Positions 18,139-50,797 are shown, counted from the whole stretch's first letter. The stretch is 62,837 nt of DNA, filler included, from Collodictyon triciliatum (GCA_043381765.1; 52 parts of 52 records of this genome joined end to end with filler, not necessarily neighbours in it); one strand, 5' to 3'. Program-made: numbers and translations. Notes: generated from the letters alone by a model not told the origin.

Positions 18139-18979
18139 NNNNNNNNNNNNNNNNNNNNNNNNNNNNNNNNNNNNNNNNNNNNTTAATTAATTAANNNNNN
18201 NNNNNNNNNNNNNNNNNNNNNNNNNNNNNNNNNNNNNNGAGAAGGGTATAGTATATTTTTGAAAACTATTTGGCTTTTGATTCTTTGTGAAAAAAAAAAA
18301 ACAAAAAAACTGCACCAAATAAACTGCGCAGCGACAAAGCTGTTGGGACGAGCGTTATCGTGTCTATTTGCTAGACAGCTCGGGGGAGCAATATTCGCAC
18401 GAGAAGAGTACTCGACTTTGTTTTATGTCGATAGAATAGGCAGCCGATCAGAGGAAAGAAAAAAGACAATATAAGGTAGCGAAGAAAAGAATAACGAAGA
18501 ATTTGTGAGCAAGAAAACCAATCCTTGGCAAAAGTTTAAATAGATCTTCCCCTTGCCGTGTTCCTCAACCACACGCGGTTAACATCCCTTGTCTCCCTGA
18601 CGTTGAGTGCTTTTTTGAGGGGATTCAATCTGCGGTATGACATACAAAATATATATATAAAAATTGTAGAAACTTTTTATATCATGGGTTGTGCTCAAAG
18701 ATGGAAGGTAGATATCTCCTTCCATAAGCGTCTTTTTCGTATATATAGTATGATTACGCGGTTCTCAGAAAGCAGATATCCTCACGCAAAGGGGATAAGC
18801 ACGTCGTCCGCGCAAGTCGTGTGTGGTATGTGTTCTATGCGATTGTGTGCTCCAGCCTTCAAGATGGAGAGAGTGTGTGCTTCAAAGCCTAAATACTTCT
18901 AGCTATCACACATCCATATTCTTTCCTTTAATCTTACTCTCAGTTTGTGCAAGATAGTGGAGATATAGGCTTTGATTCT

Positions 18980-19352
18980 CTAGCCTTTGTTCGCATGGAC
19001 GCTACTTGTTGGCCGGGTGGCAGAGAAGTAGTCCGTAATCAGGAATTGCATCCTGCGTTTCGGCCTGTAGCCTGGGTCTTGCGCCTGCATGAGACATACA
19101 AGGCGAGGTTGAATATCCTTATCAGCTTCTTTCCACATGTCTCTTCTCACGGGGTCGGAGTAGTAGAGAACGGGCAGGTGGCGAAGAAAGCTGTTGAGGA
19201 AAGAGATTTGTATGATGTCATCCAGCCTGTTATCAGGAATGGGTGGCTGGTTGTTGAGTCTTGCTTTGCGTGAGTATATGCACGCTATCCACATAGTCCA
19301 TAGCAAATGGCCTCGCGTCAATGCCCAGAATGTTTTTGCATCTGGACGCAGC
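18980..19352 (-). mobile_element. Non-LTR retrotransposon (L1/Tx1-like) ORF2 C-terminus, family A, ending in a PIP box
   Basis: TFWALTRGHLLWTMWIACIYSR resembles the W..W region after the LINE ORF2 zinc knuckle; homologous at protein level to the copies at 34540 and 58810. Confidence 0.6.
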
Positions 19353-21879: not shown

Positions 21880-22991
21880 GCTCCAACTCTTTTATTTGGT
21901 GACTCGACGGTACCGCAATCAGGTATTTGGGGTACAGATGGGTCTATTAGAATTGGAACAGATGGTGTAGAAAGGTTTAATATTGGTAACACGGGCGCGA
22001 CTCTTACAGGCAATCTAGTTATGGCCGGAACTAACGGCGGCATTGGTGTTTTGCAAAATACAATAGGTAATAATCCTAATTCAGGGTTGTATTCAACAAC
22101 AAGCACTAATTCAGGCATTCGATTTTCAGACACTAATTCCAATTTTCGTGTATTATGCAATAATATGAATGTGTTAGACTGTACCCAGCAATCTACTGAA
22201 GGTATTGTAAGTATAGAAGAGGGCCTATTAGTGAAAAAAACTTTCCGAACGCCATTTTCGACCCAAGGTCACACAGCCAGTTTTATAACAACAACGACCT
22301 CTATGATGATAAGAATTGATATAAGCAATAATCAACCAGGCGCTATCGCTTTACCCTTTTTACAAAATAGAGCAAATGGCCAACAACATATCATTATTCC
22401 TTTCAAAAGTTCTACTAATACAGGCACGTTCTTTATATGGACTAGTAATACGGTAGGAGTTGAAATTCACATAATGAATAATTCAACAAGAACTGTTGTC
22501 TCAGGAACTACACAATTTCAATTATTTGAAGGTGGGGTATACACTTGTGTATGGCATTGGATTTCTTCAACTACTGGAATTTGGTATGTTTGGATTAACG
22601 GAATACCACCTACTAGTGTTCCCGATCCGTTTGTAGTTGGTACGTTTATAGATTTTGTCTCCCAAAATTCAGGTGCTAGAATACAGGGAGTAAATTCAGG
22701 AGCAGCCTCTACTGTGGGTATGGTTCTTAATACAACATTAACTACTAACTTTACCGTGAATGATACCGAAGTTCAAAATTCGCTACGATTGTTTAAAGCG
22801 CCGATTACCGATTTTATAATACACGACAGCGGAACGCACAATGTGAGTCGAAATTCACCAAATAAAATCGTATTGACAAAACAGTCATCGGGATCTTCAA
22901 ATGCAGTAATTATATTTCCAGTAAGTACTGATGTCCCGAATGGACTAGAAATTCAAGTATTTGTCTGGATGTTGCCAAATAGAAATGGAAC
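21880..22991 (+). CDS. Intron-less G/T/S/N-rich beta-strand protein, virion-fibre / tail-fibre-like (open across the whole contig)
   Basis: About 370 codons with no stop; APTLLFGDS..SGIWG.DGSIRIGTDGVERFNI resembles viral fibre repeats. Confidence 0.5.
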
Positions 22992-26759: not shown

Positions 26760-26782
26760 AAAACAAAACAAAAAACAAAAAA

Positions 26783-27161
26783 AACATTTCATCGATTGTT
26801 GGGAGTTGTGATTTCAATATGTAACATCTTGCAAACAGATAAGTGTCGGTAACCAAATTATGACACAATAAAACCGTATCGTTGGTTTTGTCATAATCAT
26901 CTGCATTCTTTACAATCGACTAAAGAGATGTTTTCAGATTTCGATAGCCTGGTTTACAGACTTTAGATTCTCAGACTAAAGACGTTTTCTTTTCTTCACC
27001 TGAAAGTCTTTGTTTTACTTTTTCCTTTAGAAAACTACCGAGTTTTCAATTGTAATAAAACTTAAGTCGATTAGTCAATTTAATAAATATACCTGCATGA
27101 AATCCATTCATGTAAAATTAAGCATCTACCGAGACTTTCAAAATATGCGCTTTGTGGCAAA
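26783..27161 (-). mobile_element. Fanzor1-like element copy B: decayed 5' ORF end plus conserved leader
   Basis: Aligns by eye with 50403-50797; encodes KTSL*SIVKNADDYDKTNDTVLLCHNLVTDTYLFARCYILKSQLPTIDE with stops and a frameshift. Confidence 0.7.
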
Positions 27162-34539: not shown

Positions 34540-35040
34540 CGGAGAAGAAAATGTTGGCAACACTTCGCGTAACTGGGACTCGACCCGCCAATCGACACCA
34601 AGCAACCCACGACTCTAGAACACTCTGGACAGTCACAAGGGGACTTATGCTGTGTTCCTTATGAAGTGCGCGTATATTCTCGCTCTAGTCATTCACCCGA
34701 ACGAAAAATCAATGTATCGAGGCTTGAAAGCCTCGTGCAATACAGCTTCCTGAACAGCTTGCTGAAATACACCCGCATTCTTCGCTACTCTGACTGCAAG
34801 CGAAGAGAGATGTGGGAATGTGTCGTAAGATATCTCCCACAGCATATCCAGCTACTGCTATCCACGCAGCCAATCAACCAGTTGGGACACCCATCTGACC
34901 AACTCGCTGTCACTGATTTCTTTCCAGTGCTAGCCTATCCGCTTTATTGTCTTCTCTTACTCACGTTTGCTCTCTGCCACGCGCACACCTATCTTCAACT
35001 TTTTTTACGTTTTTGTTCTGTTGCACCTCGCATTGAATAT
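34540..35040 (+). mobile_element. Non-LTR retrotransposon 3' end, family B, decayed and probably 5'-truncated
   Basis: Clear nucleotide homology to 58810-59227 (ORF end and 3' UTR); frameshifts; ends in QLAVTDFF. Confidence 0.65.
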
Positions 35041-49692: not shown

Positions 49693-50797
49693 CATGTATT
49701 TAAAATTGTAGCCTCTTTGATGAAGACCCTCTTCTTCATTTCAAAGAACTTATCCCATAGTGTCTCTTTGCATCCTGATATATTCTTCATTAATAATGGT
49801 TTTCGACCTGACACTAATAGATCTATCAAACATGCAGTATCTAGAGTAATATGACATGGTATATTGTCAGTTCTTCTAGAGATTGGTTAAAACAGTTTGG
49901 TTCCAATTTCCCCAAAAATGCGATTCATGCAAATCAGACATGGAATGTACTTACTTGGATTGGCTTTGCTTCATATTCGATACCATTTACAATATCGCTG
50001 GGAATGATACGATTCAAATTTATTTTAGCCCATCCTTTATAGTATTCCGATATTTCGAGTTTCTTGAAGATGACTTCTTTTTTTTAACTTTCGTAACTCT
50101 GCCTTTTTAACAGCTCCCGTAATATTCTCATCTTTAGGAACTGTTTGATATATAAAGCACAGTAACCTCTCTACAAAATGCTCCTTCATGTTATTATGAT
50201 AAGCTGTTAACACTTGCTTCGCCAAGTACGGTAATGCATGAGACAGTCCAACTAACGGAAAGCGTTCTTCTCGGGACAGAAGGAATAGAAAATCATAGAG
50301 ATAAAAAGTAATCATGTCATAGCCCTTTTCTGGTTTTTTTTTAAAAAAACTTGCGAGTCTACCTTGTGAAACTACTCTGAAGTGTCTTTAAAACGTACAA
50401 AAAAACCATTTCATCGATTGTTGGGAGCTGTTGTGATTTCAATATGTAACATGTTTCAAACAGATAAGTGTCGGTAACTAAATTATGACACAATAAAACC
50501 GTATCGTTAATTTTCTCATAGTCATCCGCATTCTTTACAATCGACTCCAGAGATGTTTTCACATTTCGATAGTGTGGTTTTAAAGACATTAGATTCTCAG
50601 ACTGAAGACATTTTCTTTTTTTCATCTGAAAGTCTTTGTTTTATTTTTTCCTTTAGAAAACCACGGAGTTTTCAATTTTAATAAAACTTTTGTAAATTAG
50701 TCAATCAGTCAATTTAACAACGAAAAAACTGCACAAAATCAATTTAGGTAAAACTAAGCATCTACCGAGACTTTCAAAGTGTGCGCATTGTGGCAAA
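49693..50797 (-). mobile_element. Fanzor1-like element copy A: N-terminal part (about 310 codons) of a frameshifted RNA-guided nuclease gene plus 5' leader
   Basis: Successive frames: YRNVKTSLESIVK...INDTVLLCHNLVTDTYLF..CYIL...LPTIDE; LPYLAKQVLTAYHNNMKEHFVERLL.FI; LDTACLIDLL...LMKNI...KETLWDKFF.MKKRVF. This is the motif order of Fanzor1 before RuvC-I; the contig ends before RuvC. Confidence 0.72.

What the first reader, a model, noticed from the sequence alone, without database searches (positions are those of the whole stretch)
19013..19070. Retrotransposon ORF2 tail carries a p21/Cdt1-like PIP-degron
Seen: the family A C-terminus reads RPKRRM-QFLITDYF-SATR. Known: the PIP box is Q-x-x-(L/I/M)-x-x-aromatic-aromatic, and the CRL4-Cdt2 PIP-degron adds TD at positions 5-6 and a basic residue at +4, as in p21 (RKRR-QTSMTDFY-HSKR) and Cdt1 (QRRVTDFF-ARRR). 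All of these features, including the upstream basic patch, are present. Human L1 ORF2p binds PCNA through an internal PIP box between EN and RT. I am not aware of a C-terminal degron-type motif in a LINE. Inference: the element docks on chromatin-bound PCNA and may be destroyed in S phase or after damage, giving a self-limiting, replication-coupled retrotransposon.
Basis: partly seen in the sequence, partly recalled or inferred. Interest (0 to 1): 0.78.

Follow-up and report, generated by a model that had tools for sequence, protein, structure and literature searches.

The report
PCNA-docking tail on a LINE enzyme
A jumping gene of the LINE-1 type from an uncultured freshwater organism ends its enzyme in a short, strictly conserved tag of the kind that proteins use to dock on the DNA sliding clamp PCNA, which suggests it ties its copying to DNA replication or repair; whether the tag also marks the enzyme for destruction is untested.

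Summary
The motif is real. On the minus strand, an ORF open to the contig end (18983-19352, stop 18980-18982) reads RPKRRM-QFLITDYF-SATR, then ten more residues. The window is 52 contigs of about 1.1 kb joined by spacers, so only 123 codons are available.

Relatives from metagenomes fall into five lineages, 20-41% identical outside the box. Across 19 tails the only invariant columns are Q, T and the last F of the box.

The LINE reading holds indirectly:
- 21 of 27 relatives carry Pfam zf-RVT, with a CCHC knuckle 136-140 residues upstream of the box.
- Two predicted models each have human LINE-1 ORF2p as best fold match, Z 11.2 and 9.5.
- No RT domain was seen on any contig.

The degron reading is only partly supported:
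- TD occurs in 15 of 19 tails and a basic +4 residue in 12 of 19.
- Lineages B and D lack the +4 residue, no tail has a basic +3, and the upstream basic patch is confined to lineage A.

Most likely this is a high-affinity-type PCNA-docking box on a disordered ORF2p tail. PCNA binding was never tested because the complex job never ran. I rate it a new variant of a known kind.

The parts
18980..19352 (-). C-terminal 123 codons plus stop of a LINE-1-type ORF2. It corresponds to the helical end of the CTD plus a disordered tail, and the frame is open to the contig edge at 19352.
   Evidence: The copy is 87% identical to P0024 and P0025, which carry zf-RVT/CCHC upstream. The best fold match of their models is human ORF2p 9hdo_A.
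19025..19048 (-). PIP box QFLITDYF, canonical Q-x-x-I-x-x-aromatic-aromatic with T-D at positions 5-6.
   Evidence: Q, T and the last F are the only invariant columns among 19 tails, and I is at 95%. The box lies in a stretch with pLDDT below 50, after the last long helix.
19013..19015 (-). Arg codon at position +4 after the box, the PIP-degron 'B+4' position.
   Evidence: K/R at +4 occurs in 12 of 19 tails and H in 2. It is absent from lineages B and D.
19049..19066 (-). Basic patch RPKRRM directly upstream of the box.
   Evidence: It is present only in lineage A (5 of 19 tails with net charge of +3 or more in the 8 upstream residues). K to N variants were seen (19058 T>G; P0024).
18750..18979 (-). 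Probable 3' UTR of the element. The repeat seems to end near 18750, and no poly(A) run is seen.
   Evidence: Contigs from other metagenomes cover 18750-19352 only, and none lies on 18239-18749. The sequence was read. The boundary is inferred from sparse cover.
58910..59227 (-). Lineage B copy of the same ORF2 tail, open to the contig edge. Box QLSITDFF at 58931-58954, followed by PVLA (no basic +4), then a stop 7 residues after the box.
   Evidence: Against L001 there are 9 synonymous and 5 non-synonymous codon differences, with differences by codon position of 4/1/10.
34573..34962 (+). Decayed lineage B copy, with stops and frame breaks upstream. Box QLAVTDFF at 34900-34923.
   Evidence: Its differences from the other B copies are spread evenly over codon positions.

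Best explanation
The ORF is the end of the ORF2 protein (endonuclease/reverse transcriptase polyprotein) of a LINE-1-type non-LTR retrotransposon. The host is an uncultured eukaryote whose DNA turns up in freshwater metagenomes.

After the last helix of the C-terminal domain comes a poorly conserved linker of about 15 residues, then an 8-residue canonical PIP box with Thr-Asp at positions 5-6, the high-affinity type. A short variable end of 7-14 residues follows.

Inferred mechanism: the box, exposed on a disordered tail, inserts into the hydrophobic pocket and Q-pocket of one PCNA protomer. This tethers the ORF2p ribonucleoprotein to DNA-loaded PCNA at replication forks or repair gaps. Alternatively it holds PCNA at the nick being extended during target-primed reverse transcription. 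This would be the same host dependency that human L1 satisfies with a different surface.

Shown here: the motif, its placement, its conservation at the protein level, and the L1-type identity of the flanking domain. Inferred: PCNA binding and its role in retrotransposition.
For: 1. Motif and conservation.
- In alignment A4 (19 tails) the only invariant columns are Q103, T107 and F110 of the window protein, and I106 is at 95%. The linker before the box (0.32-0.58 majority fraction) and the residues after it (0.32-0.58) are variable.
- A canonical PIP box occurs in 17 of 19 tails and TD in 15 of 19.
- The 19 tails form five lineages, 20-41% identical outside the box.

2. Selection acts on the protein, not the RNA.
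- Lineages A and B use different synonymous codons for Q, I, T, D and F of the box.
- Two B copies differ by 9 synonymous against 5 non-synonymous codons, with 10 of 15 differences at third positions.
- Two contigs about 12% diverged from the window copy show no listed difference inside the box. Ten rows of that table were not shown.

3. Context typical of a docking motif.
- The tail has pLDDT below 50 in both models.
- The box sits 7-14 residues from the C-terminus in 18 of 19 tails and 34 residues from it in P0010.

4. L1-type ORF2 identity.
- Pfam zf-RVT occurs in 21 of 27 relatives. The other 6 are fragments that do not reach that region.
- A C-x2-C-x8-H-x4-C knuckle lies 136-140 residues before the box.
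- Of 48,161 chains, the top fold match of both models is human LINE-1 ORF2p 9hdo_A. The first gave Z 11.2, rmsd 3.8, 191 aligned residues, chain 804-1264, with the next match at 7.7. The second gave Z 9.5, rmsd 5.3, 173 aligned residues, chain 1077-1266, with the next match at 7.8.
- The nearest Atlas clusters are eukaryotic zf-RVT proteins.
- The family is multi-copy and includes decayed copies.

5. Precedent, from passages read.
- Human ORF2p needs PCNA for retrotransposition (PMC10830420) and acts mostly in S phase alongside PCNA (PMC5821460).
- PIP boxes are known on the Pogo, Tigger and Lemi1 transposases (PMC5371812).
Against: - No RT or endonuclease domain was seen. The longest relative, P0024 (427 aa), reaches 250 residues upstream of the CCHC and still shows no RT. 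No RT was found among 125 ORFs of the window. Two searches for longer relatives found none.
- The fold match is to a mostly helical region. For such folds the tool warns that Z below about 13 can reflect a common arrangement.
- Foldseek found nothing at E <= 0.001.
- Binding to PCNA was not tested in any way, because the complex prediction never ran.
- Lineage E (P0017) has a degenerate box, QYFNTPFF. One lineage C copy has L at the first aromatic position.
- Four sequences that reach this region were left out of the count of 19. P0002 has a one-residue deletion in the box. P0007 and P0011 diverge before the box. The decayed window copy at 34573 keeps a canonical TD box.
- The copies are not independent samples, since they form only five lineages.
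Confidence: 0.66

Rival explanations
1. The box is a true PIP degron: once docked on DNA-loaded PCNA it recruits CRL4-Cdt2, and ORF2p is destroyed in S phase or after damage, giving a self-limiting element.
For: - The window copy has every feature given for the degron in PMC8871960 (passages): a canonical box, TD at positions 5-6 and a basic residue at +4.
- The full pattern occurs in 9 of 19 tails.
- Arg at +4 is the consensus of lineage A (5 of 6) and of most of lineage C (6 of 9, with H in 2 more).
- Thr at position 5 is invariant, which a plain PIP box does not require.
- The motif lies in a disordered tail, as in known substrates (PMC8871960).
Against: - Lineage B (PVLA, 2 of 2 counted plus the decayed copy) and lineage D (SIIP, with TN instead of TD) have no basic +4 residue, yet they keep the box.
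- A basic +3 residue, said to matter in human cells (PMC8871960), occurs in 0 of 19 tails.
- The upstream basic patch is confined to lineage A.
- Within lineage A one copy has L at +4 and one has TN.
- A degron would lower the element's own enzyme level, so it is not obviously favoured.
- No host genome is held, so the presence of Cdt2 is unknown.
Confidence: 0.2
2. The conserved box binds another partner that reads PIP-like or FF-type peptides, for example a translesion polymerase scaffold or a mismatch-repair protein. Alternatively it folds back on ORF2p itself, as the internal 'PIP helix' of human ORF2p packs on the palm and fingers.
For: - In human ORF2p the canonical-looking PIP sequence is a structural helix packed on the palm and fingers (PMC10830420 passages), and PCNA is reported to bind elsewhere (PMC7617806 passages).
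- From my own recall, not from any call: PIP-like motifs are promiscuous.
Against: - Here the box is in a low-confidence tail beyond the last helix, separated from it by a variable linker, and not inside a folded domain.
- All four PCNA-contacting positions (Q, I and the aromatic pair) are conserved together in 17 of 19 tails.
Confidence: 0.1
3. The conservation reflects a nucleic-acid signal near the 3' end of the element, such as an RNA structure recognised by the RT. Alternatively the ORF is a host or domesticated gene rather than a mobile element.
For: - The box lies within about 300 nt of the inferred 3' end of the repeat.
- RT was not seen.
Against: - Codons in the box differ synonymously between lineages while the residues stay the same.
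- The family is multi-copy and has decayed, frameshifted copies.
- zf-RVT is present and the fold is ORF2p-like.
Confidence: 0.04

Closest known systems
Human LINE-1 ORF2p and its PCNA dependence
   Same: - Same type of protein. A CCHC knuckle is followed by a helical C-terminal domain, and 9hdo_A is the best fold match of two models.
- Human L1 requires PCNA for retrotransposition and acts in S phase (passages of PMC10830420, PMC5821460, PMC5371812).
   Different: - In human ORF2p the canonical-looking PIP sequence is internal (residues 404-419 or 407-415, tower/NTE) and packs against the palm and fingers.
- A 2025 study places PCNA on a non-canonical 'PUB' surface of the wrist, involving W1011, I1014 and N968 (PMC7617806 passages).
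- Here a textbook PIP box with TD sits on a disordered tail appended after the CTD.
- Sequence identity in the structural alignments is only 13-14%.
PIP boxes of DNA-transposon transposases (Drosophila Pogo, human Tigger, Arabidopsis Lemi1)
   Same: A mobile-element enzyme carrying a canonical PIP box. Pogo was found as a PCNA interactor (PMC5371812 passages; a Pogo-derived peptide is used as a high-affinity PCNA ligand, PMC4103810 passages).
   Different: Those are DDE transposases of cut-and-paste elements, unrelated to reverse transcriptases. According to the review, the function of their boxes is also unclear.
PIP degrons of CRL4-Cdt2 substrates (Cdt1, p21, Set8)
   Same: The window copy matches the stated consensus: a canonical box, TD at positions 5-6 and a basic residue at +4, in a disordered terminus (PMC8871960 passages).
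   Different: - The +4 basic residue is not conserved across lineages and the +3 basic residue is absent.
- No evidence of degradation exists.
- The carrier is a retrotransposon enzyme, not a cell-cycle regulator.

Membership tests
Canonical PIP box (PCNA-interacting peptide) | Sequence Q-x-x-[I/L/M]-x-x-[F/Y]-[F/Y] | tested here: met
   The window copy reads QFLITDYF. The pattern occurs in 17 of 19 tails, with V also allowed at position 4 in the pattern used.
Canonical PIP box (PCNA-interacting peptide) | Lies in an exposed, disordered region, usually near a terminus | tested here: met
   pLDDT is below 50 for residues 402-427 of P0024 and 236-262 of P0025. The box is 7-14 residues from the stop in 18 of 19 tails.
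Canonical PIP box (PCNA-interacting peptide) | Binds PCNA in a motif-dependent way | not testable with these tools
   The complex prediction, with an archaeal PCNA stand-in, could not be run because the queue was full or gave no answer. No host PCNA sequence is held.
PIP degron (CRL4-Cdt2 substrates) | Thr-Asp at positions 5-6 of the box | tested here: met
   The window copy has TD. TD occurs in 15 of 19 tails, T is invariant, and D becomes N in P0010 and P0003.
PIP degron (CRL4-Cdt2 substrates) | Basic residue (K/R) at +4 after the box | tested here: inconclusive
   Met in the window copy (Arg, 19013-15). It occurs in 12 of 19 tails, but lineage B has Ala and lineage D has Pro, so it is not a family-wide constraint.
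PIP degron (CRL4-Cdt2 substrates) | Basic residue at +3 (important in human cells according to PMC8871960) | tested here: not met
   0 of 19 tails have it.
PIP degron (CRL4-Cdt2 substrates) | PCNA- and Cdt2-dependent proteolysis, with Cdt2 present in the host | not testable with these tools
   No genome is held for the window. No Cdt2, DDB1 or PCNA was found among 125 ORFs scanned, which says nothing about a genome seen only as 52 short contigs.
LINE-1-type non-LTR retrotransposon ORF2p | Reverse transcriptase domain in the same ORF | tested here: inconclusive
   Not seen. All contigs are 2.1 kb or shorter, and the longest relative stops 250 residues upstream of the CCHC. Searches for longer proteins gave nothing. 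One Atlas structural neighbour cluster carries RVT_1 in 84% of its members.
LINE-1-type non-LTR retrotransposon ORF2p | C-terminal Cys-His knuckle (Pfam zf-RVT) | tested here: met
   Present in 21 of 27 relatives, above the curated cut-off in P0024 (34.6 against 27.5 bits). The motif is C-x2-C-x8-H-x4-C. The window contig itself ends before this region.
LINE-1-type non-LTR retrotransposon ORF2p | Wrist/CTD fold like solved ORF2p | tested here: met
   9hdo_A ranks first of 48,161 chains for two models, with Z 11.2 and 9.5. Caveat: the region is helical, and Foldseek found nothing.
LINE-1-type non-LTR retrotransposon ORF2p | Dispersed multi-copy family with decayed copies | tested here: met
   There are three copies in the window, one with stops. 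L001 is frameshifted. About 30 related protein fragments sit on separate contigs.

The most novel reading that the evidence does not exclude
In lineages A and C the tail is a working PIP degron. ORF2p that has docked on DNA-loaded PCNA would then be ubiquitylated by CRL4-Cdt2 and removed. Each enzyme molecule would get one replication-coupled attempt at insertion, and the element would limit its own toxicity. Lineages B and D, which lack the basic +4 residue, would be natural non-degradable variants of the same box.
Probability: 0.2. Interest if true: 0.8.

Novelty: new variant of a known kind. Interest (0 to 1): 0.52.

Why it matters
PCNA dependence of LINE-1 is established only for the human element, and how ORF2p contacts PCNA there is now disputed (internal PIP helix against wrist 'PUB' surface). 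An L1-type family that carries an unambiguous, strictly conserved, terminal PIP box would show that clamp docking is a recurrent need of these elements, met by different means. It would also give a simple, transplantable peptide for testing what PCNA does in target-primed reverse transcription. The natural split between lineages with and without the basic +4 residue is a ready-made comparison for the degron idea. My full-text searches found no paper describing a PIP degron in a retrotransposon or a C-terminal PIP box on a LINE protein. Subscription-only papers are not covered by those searches.

Tried and rejected
- **Whole genome:** none is held.
- **Pfam on the window fragment alone:** no family.
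- **Searches for longer or full-length relatives:** none found.
- **Locus searches:** Genome contigs and viral contigs gave nothing. Metagenome contigs gave one 1,157-base locus, L001.
- **HMMER over 1.84 billion representatives:** only 8 hits. I set aside two as probably spurious. P0005 is a 3,194-residue repeat protein with 37 short matches to residues 7-34. P0008 is an Exo_endo_phos protein at E 6e-4 that matches only the basic stretch. I did not use the 78-residue fragment P0009.
- **RNase H idea:** a profile search of PDB sequences gave only a weak RNase H match (3h08, E 0.75) over the R-L-E...Y-S-D region. I rejected a cryptic RNase H domain because both models are all-helical there.
- **Other structure and sequence searches:** Foldseek against PDB found nothing at E <= 0.001. 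phmmer of the 40-residue tail against PDB sequences gave 0 hits.
- **Complex prediction:** tail plus the archaeal PCNA stand-in PCNA_PYRFU never ran. Searches were not sent on. One search gave no usable answer. Nothing can be said about binding either way.
- **Sequencing runs:** 20 rows hold part of 18900-19352, with a best share of 0.34, all from freshwater, lake, aquatic or subsurface metagenomes. Only X1, X3, X15 and X16 were laid. The lack of cover on 18239-18749 and the RNA-library contigs on 19100-19352 (7 in X16, 1 in X15) are weak hints only. The RNA contigs do not reach the box.
- **Earlier findings of this scan:** nothing on retrotransposons.
- **Second PIP-like match:** QGRLASFF followed by KKK in ORF 50040-50387(-) is at chance level for the loose pattern.

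Full report
**What the window is**

The 62,837 bases are not one locus. They are 52 contigs of about 1.1 kb, sorted by length and joined by N44 + TTAATTAATTAA + N44 spacers. No whole genome is held.

The finding lies in contig 18239-19352. Other contigs carry ordinary eukaryotic gene pieces: a kinase, Prp8, a cation ATPase, TPR, LRR and an HMG box. At least one may be phage-like, so the set may be of mixed origin.

**The observation**

On the minus strand, a frame open from the contig edge (19352) to a stop at 18980-18982 encodes 123 residues. Its end reads:

| Element | Peptide | Coordinates |
|---|---|---|
| Basic patch | RPKRRM | 19049-19066 |
| PIP box | QFLITDYF | 19025-19048 |
| Next four residues | SATR | 19013-19024 |

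Ten more residues follow before the stop.

In a six-frame scan of all 52 contigs, the box-plus-TD pattern occurs 3 times against 0.03 expected from 200 shuffles. The three hits are not independent. They sit at the homologous place of three related ORFs:
- the finding itself;
- a second, diverged family at 58910-59227(-);
- a decayed copy of that family at 34573-34962(+).

**Relatives**

The fragment alone has no Pfam family. HMMER against 1.84 billion representatives gave 8 hits, of which I judged two spurious and left one short fragment unused. A word-indexed profile search and two cluster look-ups added more. One metagenome locus, L001, was also fetched. All relatives sit on contigs of 2.1 kb or less from environmental assemblies.

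Alignments A3 (27 sequences) and A4 (19 sequences that reach the tail) were built from them. At 75% single linkage the 19 tails form five lineages: A (6, including the window copy), C (9), B (2), D (1) and E (1). They are 20-41% identical to one another outside the box.

**Is it a LINE ORF2 tail?**

Three lines of evidence are indirect but consistent.
- Pfam zf-RVT is found in 21 of 27 relatives. The six without it are fragments that do not reach that region.
- Lineage A copies 87-95% identical to the window fragment carry a C-x2-C-x8-H-x4-C knuckle 137 residues before the box. The range over all lineages is 136-140.
- I folded two relatives with their alignments. P0024 (427 aa) gave mean pLDDT 54, with 70-89 over the knuckle and the helices after it. 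P0025 (262 aa) gave mean pLDDT 61.

An exhaustive structural comparison with 48,161 PDB representatives put the human LINE-1 ORF2p TPRT complex, 9hdo_A, first for both models:

| Model | Z | rmsd | Aligned residues | Chain range | Next best Z |
|---|---|---|---|---|---|
| P0024 | 11.2 | 3.8 | 191 | 804-1264 | 7.7 |
| P0025 | 9.5 | 5.3 | 173 | 1077-1266 | 7.8 |

The aligned part ends about ten residues before the end of the human protein. The helices after the knuckle therefore correspond to the normal L1 C-terminal domain, and the PIP tail is an appendage beyond it.

There are caveats:
- The region is helical, and the tool warns that Z below about 13 can arise from common helical arrangements.
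- Foldseek found nothing.
- No reverse transcriptase or endonuclease domain was seen on any contig. The longest relative stops 250 residues upstream of the knuckle.
- None of 125 window ORFs has an RT domain.
- Two searches for longer proteins were empty.

The family is multi-copy with decayed and frameshifted members, as expected of a transposable element.

**Conservation of the box**

In A4 the only invariant columns of the whole 124-residue region are Q, T and the last F of the box, and the Ile is at 95%. The roughly 15 residues before the box and the residues after it are among the least conserved, with majority fractions of 0.32-0.58.

The box by lineage is:

| Lineage | Box |
|---|---|
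| A | QFLITDYF |
| C | QT[VA]ITDFF |
| B | QL[SA]ITDFF |
| D | QSVITNFF |
| E | QYFNTPFF (degenerate) |

Overall, 17 of 19 tails are canonical and 15 of 19 have TD.

Four sequences that reach this region were left out of the 19:
- P0002 has a one-residue deletion in the box.
- P0007 and P0011 diverge before the box, probably through frameshifts.
- The decayed window copy keeps a canonical TD box.

Selection acts on the protein:
- Lineages A and B encode the same Q, I, T, D and F with different synonymous codons.
- Two lineage B copies differ by 9 synonymous and 5 non-synonymous codons, with 10 of 15 differences at third positions.
- Two contigs from another metagenome, about 12% diverged from the window copy, show a synonymous Ser change just after the box and a Lys-to-Asn change in the basic patch. 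They show no listed change inside the box, though ten rows of that table were not displayed.

Both models give the tail pLDDT below 50. An island of strict conservation in a disordered, otherwise variable terminus is the signature of a short linear docking motif.

**Degron or plain docking box?**

From the passages I read of PMC8871960, a PIP degron is a canonical box with TD at positions 5-6 and a basic residue at +4, and a basic +3 residue is also important in human cells. The window copy meets the first three criteria. Across the family the picture is mixed:
- K/R at +4 occurs in 12 of 19 tails and His in 2 more.
- By lineage, it is the consensus in A (5 of 6) and C (6 of 9).
- B has Ala (both counted copies and the decayed one) and D has Pro.
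- A basic +3 residue occurs in 0 of 19 tails.
- The complete degron pattern occurs in 9 of 19 tails.

So the constrained unit is the box with its Thr, and the degron-specific additions are lineage-specific. That leaves the degron idea open for lineages A and C, at about 0.2. It is not the best general explanation.

**Mechanism proposed**

The most economical reading is that the tail docks ORF2p on PCNA. This is inferred from motif identity, placement and conservation. It was not tested, because the one complex prediction I tried (tail plus an archaeal PCNA stand-in) never ran.

The precedent is human L1. From passages read:
- PCNA is required for retrotransposition and recruits RNase H2 (PMC10830420).
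- Retrotransposition peaks in S phase, with ORF2p on chromatin alongside PCNA and MCM proteins (PMC5821460).
- The sequence long called the L1 PIP box (residues 404-419 or 407-415) is a helix packed on the palm and fingers (PMC10830420).

The family described here would reach the same partner by a simple terminal peptide attached next to the wrist/CTD side of the enzyme. Mobile-element enzymes with canonical PIP boxes are otherwise known among DNA transposons: Pogo, Tigger and Lemi1 (PMC5371812; a Pogo-derived peptide as PCNA ligand in PMC4103810).

**Where it occurs**

Parts of 18900-19352 are held by 20 run rows from 19 studies, all freshwater, lake, aquatic or subsurface metagenomes, with shares of 0.34 or less. 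Four runs were laid:
- One lake-water contig is identical to the window over 18973-19161, box included. It may be the source sample.
- Cover from other contigs stops near 18750. This suggests that the repeat ends there, giving a 3' UTR of about 230 nt with no poly(A) run visible.
- Contigs from two RNA libraries lie on 19100-19352. This is only a weak hint of transcription.

**Novelty**

Five full-text searches found no paper on a PIP degron in a retrotransposon or on a C-terminal PIP box in a LINE protein:
- 'PIP degron' with 'retrotransposon', 0 papers;
- 'PIP box' with 'ORF2p' and 'PCNA';
- 'PCNA' with 'non-LTR retrotransposon' and 'PIP';
- 'PIP box' with 'LINE-1', 'conserved' and 'zebrafish';
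- 'PIP-box' with 'retrotransposon', 'C-terminal' and 'PCNA-interacting'.

Subscription journals are not covered. The primary papers on Pogo-PCNA, on the L1 PIP box and on the definition of the PIP degron were not read. I know them only through the reviews cited and from recall.

I rate this a new variant of a known kind. PCNA use by L1-type elements and PIP boxes on transposases are both known. A canonical, TD-type, terminal box on an L1-type ORF2p is not, as far as these searches go.

**Verdict**

| Question | Verdict |
|---|---|
| Observation | Confirmed |
| 'ORF2 tail' | Supported indirectly; RT not seen |
| 'PIP box' | Strongly supported as a conserved motif |
| 'PIP degron' | Possible in two lineages, not general, untested |

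Interest is 0.52.

Noticed in passing
whole window (spacers at 1118-1217, 2334-2433 and so on): The window is 52 contigs of about 1.1 kb in order of length, joined by N44+TTAATTAATTAA+N44 spacers. Many contig ends are microsatellites. Neighbouring stretches are therefore not linked in a genome.
   Followed up: yes
relatives only: P0024 residues about 70-139 (upstream of the part present in the window): A confidently modelled small beta-barrel (pLDDT 74-89) lies upstream of the CCHC. Its weak fold matches are Tudor, Agenet and PWWP readers: 3nth_A Foldseek probability 0.89 at E 0.28, 4gy5_A Z 5.8, 7yta_A Z 5.2 and 6wau_A Z 5.2. It is not aligned to human ORF2p. This could be a chromatin-reader insertion in a LINE ORF2.
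   Followed up: partly
26775-27161 and 50397-50797: A second repeat family, 86.5% identical over 401 nt. In one contig it abuts a long A/T run at the contig start. No coding frame is evident in the shared part.
   Followed up: partly
50040-50387 (-): A 116-codon ORF next to that repeat has a PIP-like QGRLASFF followed by KKK, eight residues from its upstream stop. The loose PIP pattern is common in this T-rich sequence (26 matches observed, 8.6 in shuffles), so this may be chance.
   Followed up: no
21880-22989 (+): A frame open through the whole contig (370 codons, Gly/Thr/Asn/Ser-rich) has no Pfam family. Its nearest Atlas clusters are phage proteins at scores of 0.87-0.88, which are leads only. 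This hints that the contig set is of mixed origin.
   Followed up: partly
19100-19352 (residues 36-75 of the window protein): The R-L-[DE]...Y-S-D stretch gives a weak profile match to a bacterial RNase H (3h08_A, E 0.75) over the region of two catalytic residues. Both models are helical there, so I did not accept an RNase H remnant.
   Followed up: partly
P0005 (3,194 aa): A very long metagenome protein with 37 short stretches matching residues 7-34 of the window protein, and Fer2_4-like repeats. This is probably a repeat or low-complexity artefact.
   Followed up: no
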